From the IMG/VR virus record IMGVR_UViG_3300035158_000183, positions 32,001 through 96,000 of that record: 64,000 nucleotides of DNA; one strand, written 5' to 3'. Origin of the DNA: a virus. This document shows positions 23,444 through 55,276 of the stretch, one piece after another. Under the pieces are notes generated by a model. It was not told where the DNA came from. It did not search any database and saw only the letters and a program-made list of their open reading frames with translations. The stretch's first letter is position 1, and every line of letters starts with the position of its first letter. Both the position numbers and the translations under genes were made by a program.

Positions 23444-25441
23444 ATGCACAACAAAATGAAGCACGGGGTTGTCACTCCGAATAGGCGAGCCAATGTACCC
23501 GCCAGGGTGGTAAATGTGCACTCGCGTAGGAGAATGGCCAACACTCGCATCAAACTAGATAAGCTACTGCGATCTGCCCGCCCTAAGATATGCATCAAGC
23601 GGCGCCTGGGTGGCATAGGCGATGTGCTTATGACCACACCCCTCACCAAGGCCATTAAGACACTGATACCCCACTGCCATCTGGTGTATGCCACCGACCT
23701 CGAGTACTCTCAGGGTGCTCTAGCGGATATCATCAACCACAACCCATATGTGGACGAGCTTATACCCTTCAACCGGATCCAGGAGAGCGAATATGACTAC
23801 TCTGTCGACGTCACAGCTACGGGGCTGCGGAGAGAGAAGTCAGGCGTTACACCTCCTAACCGGATTGATATGTTCGCTGAGGAGGTAGGTGTAGATATAT
23901 CAGCCGACCCACTGCCTATCTATGTGGTGCAACAGGAGGAACGAGAACGAGCTAAAGCTGAACTCAGGGAGTTAGTCGAGCTGCGCAGGGGACAGAAGCT
24001 CATTGCTATACAGGCTAAAAGCAATGACGCAAGGAGGACATGGCCCTTAGACCACATGGCCCGGCTTCTAACACTCCTAAGCGCCGAAGAACGGATCCAG
24101 ACCCTATTCTTTGACTGGGGCGACACAACTAGTAGATGGTCACCACCTCCAGGAGGACGTGTACATTTCCTGTTCAACAGGAATCTGGCTGATGTGGCTG
24201 CCCTAATGGAGCAGTGTGATCTAGTCGTCTGTCCTGACAGTGCTCTTCTCCACCTAGCCGGAGCCCTACAGAAGAAGATTGTGGCTATATTCGGGCCAAT
24301 CCCACCTGTCAGCAGGATGAATTACTACAGTAACAGCACAGCTGTAGCGCGCCAGCTACCCTGCCAGCCCTGCTGGTACAGTCCCAGGTGTACCAGAAGT
24401 GGTGCCGCTAAGCTAGAGTGCTTGACCGGTATCTCGCCCGAGTCAGTCCTACAGGCTGTCAAGGAACGTCTGGCTACACCTCTCACAACGGTCAAGAGCA
24501 TCATCTATGGCGCCGAGCTGACCGACAAGGGCCAGGACCCCATAATCCTCGTCAAAAGGACCACAGACGGCCTAGGAGACCTCCTGATGACCACTCCAGC
24601 CCTGGCAGCTCTCAAGAACCAGTACCCTGGTAAGCAGCTCCATGTGGCTTGCCAGAGGAAGTTGTGGCCGGTCCTCCAGAACAACCCCGACGTCGATAAG
24701 ATTATAGATATAACAGAAAATATCAACAAGAACCGGTACCACATGATAATCGATATATCTACTCCGTGCGCACGCTATGAGGCGACAAGGGTCTCGGCTG
24801 GCAAGCCAGTCCAAAAAAGCAGAGTAGAGATATTTGCCGAGGCTACTGGAGTACGCGATACCATCCGAGGACTTACTCCTATATACCATGTCACCAAAGA
24901 TGAGACAGCCTGGGCGCAAGAGTTTATGGAGAGGGCTGACCTCAGCAGCGGCAAACCCCGAGTTGGCGTAGCCCTAAGAAGCGCCGAGATGTATAGGAAC
25001 TGGCCTGAAGATCGCTACCAGCGGCTATTCGACCTGGTACAGGAACACATGGACATAGTGATTTTAGACCACTCCAGAGAACACATGTTCAAGGATATAG
25101 TGGACGCCTGCGGCTTCCCACTGCGGAAAGCCATCGCTATATTGTCACAATGTGATGGGCTCATAACAGTCGACACTAGCCTCCTCCACTTCGGAGCGGC
25201 GCTCAAGGTTCCGACCATAGCCTTATTCGGACCTATAGACTATCGCCCACGCTGTAAGGCATACAAAAATGTTACTGTGGTACAATCAGATTTAGACTGT
25301 ATACCATGCTGGCGGAACAGCCGCATGCCCTGTAAGACTACAGGAATAGTAAGAGGATATTCCAAATGTCTGGAAGCTGTATCGGCTGGCCATATAGCTC
25401 GAATAGCAATCCAGAAGTTCGCAGGAGAACACGATGGCTGA
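23444..25441 (+). CDS. Tandem double GT9 (ADP-heptose heptosyltransferase-like) glycosyltransferase
   Basis: Both halves carry the GT9 motifs: GGIGDVLMTTP / DGLGDLLMTTP, NPYVD / NPDVD, RTWP / RNWP, DSALLHLAGAL..IFGP / DTSLLHFGAAL..LFGP, CxPCW..C..C. Confidence 0.88.
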   Translation: MHNKMKHGVVTPNRRANVPARVVNVHSRRRMANTRIKLDKLLRSARPKICIKRRLGGIGDVLMTTPLTKAIKTLIPHCHLVYATDLEYSQGALADIINHNPYVDELIPFNRIQESEYDYSVDVTATGLRREKSGVTPPNRIDMFAEEVGVDISADPLPIYVVQQEERERAKAELRELVELRRGQKLIAIQAKSNDARRTWPLDHMARLLTLLSAEERIQTLFFDWGDTTSRWSPPPGGRVHFLFNRNLADVAALMEQCDLVVCPDSALLHLAGALQKKIVAIFGPIPPVSRMNYYSNSTAVARQLPCQPCWYSPRCTRSGAAKLECLTGISPESVLQAVKERLATPLTTVKSIIYGAELTDKGQDPIILVKRTTDGLGDLLMTTPALAALKNQYPGKQLHVACQRKLWPVLQNNPDVDKIIDITENINKNRYHMIIDISTPCARYEATRVSAGKPVQKSRVEIFAEATGVRDTIRGLTPIYHVTKDETAWAQEFMERADLSSGKPRVGVALRSAEMYRNWPEDRYQRLFDLVQEHMDIVILDHSREHMFKDIVDACGFPLRKAIAILSQCDGLITVDTSLLHFGAALKVPTIALFGPIDYRPRCKAYKNVTVVQSDLDCIPCWRNSRMPCKTTGIVRGYSKCLEAVSAGHIARIAIQKFAGEHDG

Positions 25442-26360
25442 GGCTCTACATGTTACCGGCGGGGGTGGACTGGGGGACCTGATATACCACTACTTCTGCA
25501 AGCGTAAGTGGCAGCTGGTCGCACCCATAAAGAAGGCTCATCCGGAGATCAGGATAGTAGGAGTACTGACATGTCATGCTTCTCCAGCTCCCGAACTCAT
25601 TGAGCTAAATCCCCATATTGATGTGGTGGTCACCCATCCGTGGTACCCGCCCAAGCATGCACGCGAACAGATGTGGAGAGAAGTACTCAAAACCGAGGAC
25701 ATCAACACATTTGCCGGTAAGCACAAAATCAAGCCAGACGGGCAGAAACTGTACCTATCCAAGCATGAACAGGGTGTGTACCAGAATCTGGCAGGGAAGC
25801 CCTATATCCTTATGCATCCATTCGCTGGGCTGCCCCATCGGGGCTGCTTGCCCCACCCCAAGGATGGCGAGTATCGCTGCTTCCCCGACTATAAATACAT
25901 CGAGCTTGCCAGGCGCCTAAATGACCAGGGCTTCAACGTAGTTATAGTAGGCTACTCCGAGAAGGCTCGTGGAGGAGCCGCTCGTATTCATGAAAACTTT
26001 CTCGATGTCGATGAACCACCTGGAATTGTTAACTTAATTGACAAGGCTTCTTTACGCTTGAGTGTACAGCTAGCCCGAGGAGCACGTGGCTTCATAGGCA
26101 GTCATAGCAGCATGCTCGCTGCTGCCTGGACCAACCATGTGCCTTCCGTGTTTTTCTATCCCAATGTGGACGACCATGGGAATAAGCGTACCATCAAGAC
26201 ACATGGGGGAGAGACAGGTACATGGCAACTTGAGAAGCCTTACCACTATGGGTTCGAGCTATCACCAAAACAGTTTCTCGACCTGGAGGTTGACGAAGTT
26301 GTAGACCAACTACACACTAATATGGAGGCTAAGCATGGCCAGAAAAAACATTCTGTTTAA
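25434..26360 (+). CDS. GT9-like GT-B glycosyltransferase (divergent)
   Basis: GGGLGDLI, LNPHID, YILMHPFAG, NLIDKASLR..GFIGSHSSML..VPSVFF. Confidence 0.7.
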   Translation: MAEALHVTGGGGLGDLIYHYFCKRKWQLVAPIKKAHPEIRIVGVLTCHASPAPELIELNPHIDVVVTHPWYPPKHAREQMWREVLKTEDINTFAGKHKIKPDGQKLYLSKHEQGVYQNLAGKPYILMHPFAGLPHRGCLPHPKDGEYRCFPDYKYIELARRLNDQGFNVVIVGYSEKARGGAARIHENFLDVDEPPGIVNLIDKASLRLSVQLARGARGFIGSHSSMLAAAWTNHVPSVFFYPNVDDHGNKRTIKTHGGETGTWQLEKPYHYGFELSPKQFLDLEVDEVVDQLHTNMEAKHGQKKHSV

Positions 26361-54700: not shown

Positions 54701-55276
54701 TGTGGCTCCTGTACTTCCTGTCGGACCTTGCGGACCAGGTACGCCCTGATTCCCTTGTGGTCCAGTCGTACCAGTAGGTCCAGTCTCGCCAGTCGTACCA
54801 GTCGCACCAGTACTTCCGGTGGAACCTGTTATCCCTGTGGGCCCGGTCTCTCCTGTAGCACCCTTGGCTCCGGTAGGTCCAGTAGCACCGGTTGGTCCTG
54901 TATTGCCTTGTAAACCTTGTGAGCCAGTAGATCCGGTAGCCCCAGTTGGACCGGTAACTCCAGTACTTCCTGTAGTTCCCTTAGCACCCTGTGAACCCAC
55001 AGGTCCTGTGGGTCCTGTAGATCCCGTAGGACCCGTAACTCCCGTAGAACCTTTCGCTCCGGCTGCACCCGTTACACCTGTAGGACCTGTCTGCCCCGTG
55101 GCACCAGTAGAACCGGTAGCTCCATCTGCACCTGTCGGTCCAGTAATTCCGGTAGGACCTGTGGGTCCGCCTGCAGGACCTGTGGGCCCAGTAGGACCAG
55201 CCGGACCTGTGGCTCCGCCAGAAGGGTTATATAGGTCTAGGTCTTCGCGGAGAAGTGGGTTGTACCTACGTGGCAT
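51746..55276 (-). CDS. Collagen-like fibre protein (Gly-X-Thr) with two globular inserts and a C-terminal globular domain
   Basis: About 900 aa of GPT/GAT/GST triplets. Confidence 0.92.
52265..55215 (-). repeat. Degenerate 9-bp collagen triplet repeats, including an exact (GTAGAGCCG)x3 at 54102-54128
   Basis: Directly visible in the DNA. Confidence 0.9.

What the first reader, a model, noticed from the sequence alone, without database searches (positions are those of the whole stretch)
23444..55276. Candidate phage-encoded virion fibre glyco-decoration pathway with enzymes and likely substrates in one locus
Seen: three GT9-like domains, a pyruvyltransferase-methyltransferase fusion, two sulfotransferases and a GT2-TPR. 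They flank or sit inside the tail module, which holds a Ser/Ala-rich YadA-head fibre, a Thr-rich collagen fibre and a Tyr-rich protein. No flippase, Wzy/Wzx, GtrAB-like membrane proteins or TM segments occur in these enzymes, so they look cytoplasmic. Known: GT2-TPRs O-glycosylate proteins, GT9-related AAH/TibC heptosylate adhesins, and some phages glycosylate their virions. Inference: a primed, extended and then pyruvylated, methylated and sulfated anionic glycan coats the fibres, perhaps for host-surface mimicry, protease shielding or adsorption control. I know of no described phage pathway this complete.
Basis: partly seen in the sequence, partly recalled or inferred. Interest (0 to 1): 0.92.

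Follow-up and report, generated by a model that had tools for sequence, protein, structure and literature searches.

The report
Phage fibre sugar-coating gene modules
A large uncultured phage carries two separate sets of soluble sugar-adding enzymes beside its tail-fibre genes; one set almost certainly sugar-coats a threonine-rich collagen-like fibre, while the target of the other, an unusual heptosyltransferase-led set with pyruvate, methyl and sulfate tailoring, is still open.

Summary
The window lies in a 174-kb IMG/VR phage contig. The single-pathway reading is only partly supported: there are two independent modules.

Module A (48120-55641) holds a Gly-X-Thr collagen-like fibre and a GT2-TPR enzyme. 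It is a 7.6-kb insertion relative to the closest complete relative. GT2-TPR homologues sit directly behind Gly-X-Thr collagens in 6 of 7 informative loci, on at least 3 phage backbones. The enzyme models confidently as a peptide-type glycosyltransferase (SunS, ThuS, GmaR). It has the same architecture and gene arrangement as C. difficile SgtA with BclA3.

Module B (23444-29491, plus 30474-31616) holds a tandem GT9 and a GT9-like enzyme, which are conserved across a deep lineage. The tailoring genes vary between relatives; here they are a pyruvyltransferase-methyltransferase, two sulfotransferases and an SGNH-like protein. GT9 always lies beside the same tail structural block. None of 176 cassette proteins in relatives has a membrane segment.

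Module B does not co-occur with YadA-head or collagen fibres. Its acceptor, a virion protein or host LPS core, is unresolved.

This scan has already found collagen+GT2-TPR modules and tail-embedded GT9 modules on other DNA. I found no published description of either in phages.

The parts
22280..23435 (+). Two ~190-aa proteins of unknown function (22280-22867 and 22860-23435) that always precede the tandem GT9 in close relatives. They may belong to the module.
   Evidence: 33-62% identical homologues lie directly upstream of GT9 in loci L004-L016. No Pfam or PHROG family.
23444..25441 (+). Tandem GT9 glycosyltransferase (two GT-B halves). Each half is followed by a conserved Cys4 knuckle. This is the conserved lead enzyme of module B.
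   Evidence: PF01075 twice. More than 100 homologues at 40-62% identity, many carrying inteins. Invariant Cys. AF2 model pLDDT 85.5, with best PDB matches 3TOV, WaaF and WaaC, then TibC.
25434..26360 (+). GT9-like single-domain glycosyltransferase. Relatives carry 1-3 paralogues per cassette.
   Evidence: PF01075 at 30.2 bits. Homologues at 24-53% identity in 10 close-relative loci, often several per locus.
26335..27966 (+). Polysaccharide pyruvyltransferase fused to a SAM methyltransferase (glycan tailoring).
   Evidence: PF04230 at 76.5 bits, PF13578 at 63.5 bits. No match in 50,697 deposited phage records. A relative has separate methyltransferase, pyruvyltransferase and sulfotransferase genes after its GT9.
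27963..28796 (+). Probable sulfotransferase (divergent).
   Evidence: Conserved HTGT and RDPLLS motifs in 6 homologues. Atlas feature score 0.95 and structure TM 0.50-0.56 to sulfotransferase clusters. No Pfam or PDB sequence hit.
28787..29491 (+). Unknown tailoring protein, possibly an SGNH/TviD_N-like O-acyl transferase or esterase (lead only).
   Evidence: Atlas features 0.91 to TviD_N clusters, structure TM about 0.65 to SGNH-like or DUF6270 clusters. Homologues at 39-46% identity in three relatives' cassettes. No Pfam or PDB hit.
29849..30556 (-). Two small paralogous proteins (104 and 127 aa) at the very end of the structural operon; function unknown.
   Evidence: Similar sequences with a shared C-terminal acidic motif. 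No family hits.
30474..31616 (-). Sulfotransferase encoded inside the structural operon, directly after the Tyr-rich protein.
   Evidence: PF13469 at 32.3 bits (cut-off 27), PF00685 at 22.5 bits. PAPS-loop motif PRSGTS at residues 16-21.
31589..33064 (-). Ser/Gly/Thr/Tyr-rich fibre-associated protein.
   Evidence: 34 Tyr, with a Tyr-rich C-terminal third. A domain (residues 93-208) is shared with a 480-aa protein that lies between collagen and GT2-TPR in L053/L054.
33077..37930 (-). 1617-aa YadA-head-repeat tail fibre. Only its N-terminal ~45 aa are shared with relatives' fibres.
   Evidence: PF05658 at 183 bits (12 stretches), DUF2793. N-terminal matches only in L013 and L015. YadA_head absent from 23 relatives' records.
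37943..47096 (-). Conserved tail/baseplate structural block (481, 726, 1172 and 663 aa). GT9 genes lie next to it throughout the lineage.
   Evidence: PHROG 'virion structural protein' families. Homologues in close and distant relatives. GT9 lies within 14 kb of the 726-aa homologue in 15 of 15 GT9-positive records.
48120..49253 (-). GT2-TPR protein glycosyltransferase (SgtA/GmaR/SunS-type), the enzyme of module A.
   Evidence: PF00535 plus TPR families. GmaR is the only PDB sequence hit for the GT2 half. AF2 model pLDDT 93, with top PDB matches SunS and ThuS at TMq 0.62. D96-G-H98-E99 is invariant in 20 homologues.
49255..51744 (-). Four small proteins (171, 195, 212 and 260 aa) inside the inserted cassette, between collagen and GT2-TPR. 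Roles unknown.
   Evidence: Absent from relative G001 at this position. The 171-aa protein has a 34% homologue near GT2-TPR in L052. Weak Mtd_2nd and zinc-ribbon hits.
51746..55276 (-). 1176-aa Gly-X-Thr collagen-like fibre, the predicted substrate of the GT2-TPR.
   Evidence: PF01391 at 301 bits. About 284 triplets in 17 runs, Y=Thr in 209. Lies within the structural operon.
55297..55641 (-). 114-aa protein at the upstream edge of the inserted cassette.
   Evidence: No counterpart between the flanking conserved genes in G001.

Best explanation
The region holds two independent, phage-encoded, entirely cytoplasmic glycosylation modules attached to the tail-fibre part of the structural operon.

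Module A (48120-55641) is a mobile 'fibre plus its enzyme' cassette.
- The GT2-TPR enzyme uses its TPR half to hold the unfolded or assembling Gly-X-Thr collagen chain.
- Its GT-A half (DxH-type metal site, D96-G-H98) transfers the first sugar from a host nucleotide sugar onto Thr at the Y position of the triplets. By analogy with SgtA and GmaR the sugar is most likely a HexNAc.
- The result is a densely O-glycosylated virion fibre.

Module B (23444-29491, plus the sulfotransferase at 30474-31616) is a lineage-wide glycan cassette.
- The conserved tandem GT9 and GT9-like enzymes lay down a short oligosaccharide on an acceptor reachable from the cytoplasm.
- Strain-specific tailoring enzymes then add a pyruvate ketal, O-methyl, sulfate and perhaps O-acyl groups, making the glycan anionic.
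- The most likely acceptor is a tail-fibre or baseplate protein encoded next door.

What is shown: gene content, solubility, fold class, synteny and co-inheritance.
What is inferred: the acceptors, the donor sugars and the order of steps.
For: Module A:
- It is a 7.6-kb insertion between conserved genes, compared with the complete relative G001.
- GT2-TPR homologues (45-58% identity) lie 0-2 genes downstream of Gly-X-Thr collagen proteins in the window, L050, L052, L053, L054 and an NCBI contig. L051 is the exception. The loci sit on at least 3 unrelated backbones.
- Collagen is present in only 1-2 of 20 GT9 relatives that lack the enzyme. Fisher p = 1.6e-4, with the caveat that the genomes are related.
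- The model has pLDDT 93. The best full-length PDB matches are the peptide glycosyltransferases SunS and ThuS.
- The GT2 half aligns to the flagellin glycosyltransferase GmaR. GmaR's DAD aligns with the invariant DGH.
- SgtA (GT-A plus 4 TPR, encoded next to bclA3) adds beta-O-GlcNAc to Thr of collagen repeats in vitro (PMC7157674).

Module B:
- The tandem GT9 has more than 100 homologues, many invaded by inteins.
- Close relatives keep GT9x2 plus the GT9-like gene but vary the rest: GDP-mannose dehydratase, DegT, sulfotransferases, methyltransferases.
- In distant relatives a single GT9 follows the same structural genes in the same direction and leads a ~10-gene island of GT4, GT2 and sugar-nucleotide genes.
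- GT9 lies within 14 kb of the 726-aa structural homologue in 15 of 15 GT9-positive records, and within 6 kb in 12.
- 0 of 176 cassette ORFs has a hydrophobic segment, so there is no flippase, polymerase, ligase or membrane-bound initiating transferase.
- A sulfotransferase sits inside the structural operon itself.
- No hydroxymethylase or TET homologue for DNA glycosylation was found.
- Virus-encoded methyl-, pyruvyl- and glycosyltransferase clusters that decorate virion fibrils are known in Mimivirus (PMC9614988).
Against: - No experiment exists; all acceptors are inferred.
- For module B the nearest sequence and fold relatives are LPS heptosyltransferases. These also act at the cytoplasmic face without their own flippase, so the absence of membrane proteins does not exclude host LPS core as the acceptor.
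- GT9 is missing from 3 of 12 complete genomes of the wider lineage, so it is not essential for virion assembly.
- In this phage the cassette is co-directional with, and abuts, the replication operon rather than the late operon.
- No fibre type co-varies with GT9.
- The phage encodes no ADP-heptose, PAPS or sugar-epimerase genes, so the donors are unknown.
- For module A, one locus (L051) has two GT2-TPR genes and no collagen within reach.
Confidence: 0.55

Rival explanations
1. The GT9 cassette (module B) remodels the host envelope rather than the virion. The GT9 enzymes add heptose-type sugars to the lipid A-Kdo or inner core at the cytoplasmic face. The tailoring enzymes make the new core or LOS anionic. 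The host's own MsbA/Lpt route exports it. The effect would be to mask receptors, either excluding superinfection or stopping progeny from sticking to debris. Module A would still glycosylate the collagen fibre.
For: - The best sequence and fold matches are WaaC, WaaF and 3TOV. NCBIfam hits are to LPS heptosyltransferase I, II and III models.
- Three GT9 domains mirror the WaaC/WaaF/WaaQ trio (established knowledge of the E. coli inner core).
- LOS-type assembly needs no dedicated flippase, which fits the 0 of 176 membrane proteins.
- In this phage the cassette ends the replication operon.
- The literature annotates phage GT9 genes as LPS auxiliary genes (PMC10747093).
- GT9 is dispensable in 3 of 12 complete lineage genomes.
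Against: - All NCBIfam scores are far below the equivalog cut-offs (115.9 against 185.3, and so on).
- In distant relatives the GT9 and its island lie inside the late structural operon, co-directional with the tail genes.
- The position next to the same tail block is kept in 15 of 15 records, even through an inversion.
- A conserved Cys4 knuckle follows each half. The TibC paper describes this as a feature of the protein-acting enzymes when comparing TibC with WaaC.
- A host with heptose-containing LPS has not been shown.
Confidence: 0.28
2. One reading: all enzymes form one pathway. GT9 and/or GT2-TPR prime both the YadA-head fibre and the collagen fibre. The same glycan is then extended, pyruvylated, methylated and sulfated.
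For: - All the genes lie within 32 kb around the fibres.
- Tailoring enzymes could act on any exposed sugar.
- An earlier scan note on another phage reports a sulfotransferase-methyltransferase fusion next to collagen fibres (not checked by me).
Against: - Complete GT2-TPR+collagen phages G021 and G022 have no GT9.
- 19 of 20 GT9 relatives have no GT2-TPR (the exception, G018, is a weak partial hit to the GT2 domain only) and 18 of 20 have no collagen.
- YadA_head is found above threshold in 0 of 23 relatives.
- Module A is a separate insertion.
Confidence: 0.1
3. The GT9 cassette glycosylates phage DNA (hypermodified bases) to evade restriction.
For: - In this phage the cassette follows replication and recombination genes.
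- Phage glycosyltransferases that decorate DNA with diverse glycans are known (cited in PMC12619734).
Against: - No thymidylate-synthase-type hydroxymethylase was found in the 174-kb record. A Tet_JBP search also found nothing, but its positive control did not ring either, so that absence is not informative.
- Homologous GT9 genes in distant relatives are in late tail operons.
- I know of no case of pyruvyl ketal or sulfate on DNA glycans (own knowledge).
Confidence: 0.03

Closest known systems
Clostridioides difficile SgtA with BclA3 (exosporium collagen-like glycoprotein and its O-GlcNAc transferase; PMC7157674)
   Same: - A ~360-380-aa soluble enzyme with an N-terminal GT-A/GT2 domain and C-terminal TPR repeats.
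- It is encoded next to a collagen-like protein whose repeats carry Thr.
- The enzyme glycosylates Thr of the collagen repeats directly from a nucleotide sugar in the cytoplasm.
   Different: - Here the pair sits in a phage tail operon, and the product would be a virion fibre rather than a spore coat.
- Direct sequence homology to SgtA was not tested, because no SgtA sequence was at hand.
- The metal motif is DGH, not DxD.
- Some phage homologues carry an extra C-terminal methyltransferase.
SunS/ThuS glycocin S-glycosyltransferases and Listeria GmaR (GT2+TPR enzymes that act on peptides or proteins; PDB 7MSN, 7MSK, 22AO)
   Same: - Best full-length structural matches: TMq 0.62, E 1e-15.
- GmaR is the only PDB sequence match for the GT2 half.
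- All of them glycosylate polypeptides directly.
   Different: - 12-20% identity only.
- Their substrates are small peptides or flagellin, not collagen repeats.
- SunS makes S-linkages.
LPS inner-core heptosyltransferases WaaC/WaaF/WaaQ and Veillonella GT9 (PDB 2H1H, 1PSW, 3TOV)
   Same: - Pfam GT9 and a GT-B fold.
- Nearest sequence and fold relatives of both halves of the tandem enzyme.
- Soluble or peripheral enzymes.
   Different: - Scores are far below the equivalog cut-offs.
- Two halves are fused in one chain.
- Each half has a conserved Cys4 knuckle.
- The gene is phage-encoded beside tail genes, and is frequently invaded by inteins.
Bacterial autotransporter heptosyltransferases TibC/AAH (BAHT; PMC4358343)
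   Same: - GT9-related GT-B fold (TMt 0.52-0.55).
- A four-Cys metal-finger-like insertion between the C-lobe and the last helix.
- A protein acceptor is proposed.
   Different: - No sequence-level hit to TibC or to a BAHT model.
- The Cys spacing differs: C-x2-C-x5-C-x9-C and C-x2-C-x7-C-x11-C, against C339, C342, C358 and C370.
- There is no N-terminal beta-barrel.
- There is no co-occurrence with adhesin-repeat fibres.
Virus-encoded virion glycosylation: mycobacteriophage capsid and tail-tube glycans (Freeman et al. 2023, as cited in PMC12619734) and Mimivirus fibril glycogene clusters (PMC9614988)
   Same: - The virus carries its own soluble glycosyltransferases next to structural genes.
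- Mimivirus clusters combine glycosyl-, methyl- and pyruvyltransferases, and Mimivirus glycosylates collagen-like proteins (L230).
   Different: - Different enzyme families and hosts.
- To my knowledge sulfotransferases and GT9 enzymes have not been described in those systems.
- Nothing has been shown biochemically here.

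Membership tests
GT2-TPR protein/peptide glycosyltransferases (SgtA, GmaR, SunS type) | N-terminal GT-A (GT2) catalytic domain | tested here: met
   PF00535 at 43.7 bits. AF2 model pLDDT 93 with a GT-A beta/alpha core at residues 1-177. 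Matches SunS and ThuS and GmaR.
GT2-TPR protein/peptide glycosyltransferases (SgtA, GmaR, SunS type) | C-terminal TPR substrate-binding domain in the same chain | tested here: met
   Multiple TPR families over residues 200-360. Helical repeats at 184-376 in the model.
GT2-TPR protein/peptide glycosyltransferases (SgtA, GmaR, SunS type) | Metal-binding DxD-type motif | tested here: inconclusive
   The invariant D96-G97-H98-E99 aligns with GmaR's D-A-D-E. A DxH variant is plausible, but metal binding is untested.
GT2-TPR protein/peptide glycosyltransferases (SgtA, GmaR, SunS type) | Encoded beside its protein substrate (a Thr-bearing collagen repeat, for SgtA) | tested here: met
   Adjacent to Gly-X-Thr collagens in 6 of 7 informative loci. 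Co-inserted as one cassette.
GT2-TPR protein/peptide glycosyltransferases (SgtA, GmaR, SunS type) | Transfers sugar to Ser/Thr of a polypeptide | not testable with these tools
   Needs an in vitro assay or glycoproteomics.
BclA-type collagen-like glycoprotein fibres | Long Gly-X-Thr triplet runs | tested here: met
   About 284 triplets, Y=Thr in 209, X=Pro in 109. PF01391 at 301 bits.
BclA-type collagen-like glycoprotein fibres | C-terminal globular trimerisation domain of C1q/TNF type | not tested
   A ~170-aa non-collagen C-terminus exists, but its fold was not examined.
CAZy GT9 LPS heptosyltransferases (WaaC/WaaF/WaaQ) | Match to the family profile and GT-B fold | tested here: met
   PF01075 at 115 bits. 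Foldseek matches to 3TOV, 1PSW and 2H1H at TMt 0.59-0.66.
CAZy GT9 LPS heptosyltransferases (WaaC/WaaF/WaaQ) | Reaches the curated equivalog score of heptosyltransferase I, II or III | tested here: not met
   TIGR02193 scored 115.9 against a cut-off of 185.3, TIGR02195 102.1 against 134.6, and TIGR02201 74.2 against 170.2.
CAZy GT9 LPS heptosyltransferases (WaaC/WaaF/WaaQ) | ADP-heptose donor and Kdo2-lipid A acceptor | not testable with these tools
   No GmhA-type SIS gene in the phage. There is one small CTP_transf_like ORF elsewhere. The host is unknown.
BAHT protein heptosyltransferases (TibC/AAH) | Sequence membership (hit to TibC or a BAHT model) | tested here: not met
   TibC is absent from the phmmer and profile hits at E<=1. 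No BAHT model appears among the NCBIfam hits.
BAHT protein heptosyltransferases (TibC/AAH) | Cys4 iron finger inserted in the C-lobe | tested here: inconclusive
   Four conserved Cys follow each half (C307/310/316/326 and C619/622/630/642). They lie at a comparable place before the last helix, but their spacing differs from TibC's C339/342/358/370. The motif is seen in only 7 of 25 distant single-domain homologues. The metal is unknown.
BAHT protein heptosyltransferases (TibC/AAH) | N-terminal beta-barrel and atypical four-stranded N-lobe | tested here: not met
   The model has a disordered 1-35, then a regular strand-helix Rossmann N-lobe from residue 48. TibC features are from PMC4358343.
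BAHT protein heptosyltransferases (TibC/AAH) | Linked to an adhesin-repeat substrate gene | tested here: not met
   YadA_head over threshold in 0 of 23 relatives' records that were searched.
Polysaccharide pyruvyltransferases (PF04230; CsaB/WcaK type) | Full-length match over the Pfam threshold | tested here: met
   76.5 bits against 25.3, covering profile positions 1-279 of 280. The CsaB equivalog is not reached: 19.2 against 213.
PAPS-dependent sulfotransferases | Family profile match and PAPS-binding loops | tested here: met
   For 30474-31616: PF13469 at 32.3 bits against a cut-off of 27, and a PRSGTS loop. For 27963-28796 the evidence is only motifs and Atlas similarity, so that one is inconclusive.

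The most novel reading that the evidence does not exclude
The lineage-wide GT9 cassette builds a short, strain-variable oligosaccharide directly on tail-fibre or baseplate proteins in the cytoplasm. In this phage the oligosaccharide is pyruvylated, methylated and sulfated. The virion would then carry an anionic, O-antigen-like 'serotype' of its own that diversifies as bacterial surface glycans do. That would make these the first sulfated or pyruvylated glycoproteins known in a bacterial virus. The GT9 enzymes would form a new protein-acting branch, distinct from both the LPS enzymes and TibC/AAH.
Probability: 0.35. Interest if true: 0.85.

Novelty: new variant of a known kind. Interest (0 to 1): 0.68.

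Why it matters
- Phage virion glycosylation has been shown experimentally only in mycobacteriophages. Self-encoded glycan machinery is otherwise regarded as a giant-virus trait.
- This region shows that large uncultured phages carry at least two separate, portable solutions for putting sugars on something at the tail. One pairs a substrate with its enzyme so tightly that it can be tested directly: co-express two genes and weigh the product.
- If the fibres are glycosylated, that bears on host recognition, on protection from proteases and grazers, on antibody recognition of phages, and on how 'LPS-type auxiliary genes' in viromes should be annotated.
- The variable tailoring set behind a conserved GT9 suggests diversifying selection on a phage-made glycan. 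That would be a new axis of phage-host or phage-environment arms races.

Tried and rejected
- Single-protein searches of IMG/VR with the tandem GT9 and the pyruvyltransferase fusion found nothing. Profiles were needed.
- Megablast of the cassette against deposited phages gave no match. tblastn gave one weak GT9 hit, only ~24% identity GT2 hits, and none for the pyruvyltransferase fusion.
- Profiles of the 277-aa and 234-aa families against PDB sequences gave no hits. The sulfotransferase against PDB gave only chance-level hits.
- Complex prediction of GT2-TPR with the first 80 residues of the collagen fibre gave no verdict (score 0.01, controls not run). This is evidence neither for nor against binding.
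- The promoter and terminator scan around the cassette did not exceed shuffled expectation.
- Phylogenetic profiling of the 481-aa fibre N-domain against GT9 presence was uninformative: the domain is present in GT9-negative genomes too.
- The fibres next to the cassettes in relatives are ordinary Ser/Thr/Gly-rich fibres with no shared repeat.
- I considered a Tyr-sulfation reading for the sulfotransferase next to the Tyr-rich protein. It has a TPST-like PRSGTS loop and one acidic EYEYEY stretch, but most Tyr lack acidic neighbours. It stays a speculation.
- The 'moraphage' paper (PMC12619734) mentions core glycosyltransferases in another large aquatic phage lineage, but gives no link to this one.

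Full report
**What the window is.**
- The window is bases 32001-96000 of a 174,034-bp IMG/VR viral record that CheckV rates 91% complete.
- The plus strand up to about 23.4 kb carries replication genes. These are a UvsX/RecA-like recombinase with a LAGLIDADG insert, a DnaE-type polymerase with a ~400-aa insert, and a primase-helicase.
- From 29.8 kb to the window's end, the minus strand carries virion structural proteins and tail fibres.
- No cultured phage is close. The polymerase reaches only ~40% identity, and one structural protein has a single weak hit in a Moorella phage.

**Check of the observation.**
- The second sulfotransferase (27963-28796) rests on weaker evidence: conserved PAPS-loop-like motifs and Atlas similarity, not a Pfam match.
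- The 234-aa protein that follows it resembles TviD_N/SGNH-like proteins. This is a lead only.
- No protein or free small ORF in the region is membrane-spanning.

**Module A: collagen fibre plus GT2-TPR.**
- *Insertion.* Compared with the closest complete relative (G001, 197.7 kb, terminal repeats), the stretch 48120-55641 is an insertion between two conserved small structural genes. It contains the collagen fibre, four small proteins, the GT2-TPR and one more small protein.
- *Adjacency.* The GT2-TPR has homologues at 45-58% identity, some with an added C-terminal methyltransferase.
  - A Gly-X-Thr collagen-like protein lies 0-2 genes upstream, on the same strand, in the window, L050 (2574 aa, 653 Thr triplets), L052, L053 (four such proteins), L054 (1765 aa) and an NCBI contig.
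  - Only L051 lacks one. L055 is cut at the enzyme and is uninformative.
  - Apart from these genes, the loci share little or nothing with the window or with L052. The pairing therefore sits on at least three backbones.
  - Collagen appears in only 1-2 of 20 relatives that lack the enzyme. Fisher p is 1.6e-4, with the caveat that the genomes are related.
- *Structure and sequence.*
  - The enzyme models at pLDDT 93 as a GT-A domain plus a TPR superhelix.
  - The best full-length PDB matches are the peptide glycosyltransferases SunS and ThuS.
  - The only PDB sequence match of the GT2 half is GmaR, the Listeria flagellin glycosyltransferase. GmaR's DAD aligns with the invariant DGH.
- *Experimental precedent.* C. 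difficile SgtA has a GT-A domain plus four TPRs and is encoded next to bclA3. It adds beta-O-GlcNAc to Thr of BclA3 collagen repeats in vitro (PMC7157674).
- *Conclusion.* I conclude with fair confidence that this enzyme O-glycosylates the collagen fibre. The sugar is unknown.

**Module B: the GT9 cassette.**
- *Conservation.* The tandem GT9 has more than 100 homologues of the same length at 40-62% identity on contigs up to 198 kb. Many are interrupted by inteins.
- *Close relatives (L004-L016).*
  - They keep the two upstream ~190-aa genes, the tandem GT9 and one to three GT9-like paralogues.
  - They follow these with 2-9 different genes: GDP-mannose 4,6-dehydratase, epimerases, DegT aminotransferases, sulfotransferases, methyltransferases, and in one case pyruvyl- plus sulfotransferase.
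  - The cassette converges on the distal end of the tail operon.
- *Distant relatives (126-229 kb).* A single-domain GT9 (30-39% identity) lies in the same direction directly after homologues of the 663, 1172, 726 and 481-aa structural proteins. It leads a ~10-gene island rich in GT4, GT2 and nucleotide-sugar genes.
- *Wider lineage.* A wider search using the 726-aa protein found 51 loci.
  - GT9 is present in 15 of the 26 whole records searched and in 9 of 12 complete ones.
  - It is within 14 kb of that structural gene in all 15 GT9-positive records, and within 6 kb in 12.
- *No membrane proteins.* None of 176 cassette or island ORFs has a hydrophobic segment. The glycan is therefore assembled on something reachable from the cytoplasm, without a dedicated flippase, polymerase or ligase.

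**What the GT9 enzymes resemble.**
- Sequence and profile searches hit 3TOV, WaaF and WaaC, not TibC.
- NCBIfam gives LPS heptosyltransferase I, II and III models far below their cut-offs, and no autotransporter-heptosyltransferase model.
- The AF2 model (pLDDT 85.5) matches 3TOV, WaaF and WaaC at TMt 0.59-0.66, and TibC at 0.52-0.55.
- Each half ends in four conserved Cys, placed before the last helix much as TibC's iron finger is. The spacing differs, however, and only 7 of 25 distant homologues show the motif.
- The enzymes are therefore a distinct phage GT9 clade. Their membership in the TibC/AAH family fails on sequence, on N-terminal architecture and on substrate linkage.

**Independence of the modules, and the fibres.**
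- Complete GT2-TPR+collagen phages have no GT9.
- GT9 relatives nearly always lack the GT2-TPR (19 of 20 records; the exception is a weak partial GT2-domain hit in G018) and collagen (18 of 20).
- YadA_head is over threshold in none of 23 relatives.
- The proposed GT9-to-YadA fibre link and the single-pathway model are therefore not supported.
- The fibre N-domain shared across the lineage occurs with and without GT9, so no acceptor could be picked by co-variation.

**Rivals.**
- *Host LPS or LOS core* is the serious rival for module B. The nearest relatives are LPS enzymes, and such chemistry needs no extra flippase. In this phage the cassette closes the replication operon, and GT9 is dispensable in some relatives.
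  - Against it stand the late-operon placement in distant relatives, the strict adjacency to the tail block, the sub-threshold equivalog scores and the Cys4 knuckles.
- *DNA glycosylation* is unlikely: no hydroxymethylase homologue was found (a TET search also found nothing but its control was silent), and the homologues sit in late operons.
- *Donor supply.* The phage encodes no APS kinase, epimerase or GmhA. The donors must come from the host.

**Novelty.**
- The one paper I read that mentions a phage GT9 treats it as an LPS auxiliary gene (PMC10747093).
- I found no paper describing a phage GT2-TPR with a collagen fibre, or a phage pyruvyl/sulfo tailoring cassette.
- Earlier notes of this scan report collagen+GT2-TPR modules on at least eight other phage genomes. 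They also report many tail-embedded GT9 modules. I treat these as leads, not as support.

Noticed in passing
window 2230-4323 and 7309-11883: The UvsX/RecA-like recombinase carries a LAGLIDADG endonuclease insert (residues ~313-494). The DnaE-type polymerase has a ~400-aa insert between its conserved halves. Both look like inteins.
   Followed up: no
homologues of window 23444-25441 (P0012, P0015-P0017, P0025 and others): Many homologues of the tandem GT9 are about 1000 aa and carry LAGLIDADG_3/Intein_splicing domains. Five of 126 island ORFs in distant relatives also carry Intein_splicing domains. A glycosyltransferase is an unusual intein host, which implies strong conservation in a large phage population.
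   Followed up: partly
window 29849-30163 and 30173-30556: Two small paralogous proteins with a shared acidic C-terminus end the structural operon, just after the sulfotransferase. They match no family.
   Followed up: no
window 50962-51744: A 260-aa protein in the collagen cassette has a weak match to the second domain of Mtd, the Bordetella phage tropism determinant (E 7e-4). No search for a diversity-generating retroelement was made.
   Followed up: no
window 58917-61868: A 983-aa protein whose C-terminal 300 residues match several tail-fibre PHROGs. It is a further fibre or spike, conserved at 45% in relative G001.
   Followed up: no
L051:8855-11134: A 20-kb viral contig carries two tandem GT2-TPR paralogues and no collagen gene within reach. 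It is the only exception to the collagen pairing.
   Followed up: partly
L006, L009, L011, L012 cassettes: The ~290-aa GT9-like gene is present in two or three paralogous copies per cassette in several close relatives. This suggests stepwise chain extension by duplicated transferases.
   Followed up: partly
G000:C1:21966-22268 (about 10 kb before the window): A 149-aa ORF matches CTP_transf_like nucleotidyltransferases (25.6 bits). It could be a sugar-nucleotide or NAD-salvage enzyme. No GmhA partner was found.
   Followed up: no
window 31589-33064; L054:8537-9979 and L054:15235-18015: A ~115-residue domain of the Tyr-rich protein recurs in two places: a 480-aa protein between collagen and GT2-TPR in another phage lineage, and that phage's sheath-annotated 926-aa protein.
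   Followed up: no
window 39414-41594: The conserved 726-aa structural protein has a sub-threshold F5/8 type C (discoidin, carbohydrate-binding) match at residues 210-316.
   Followed up: no
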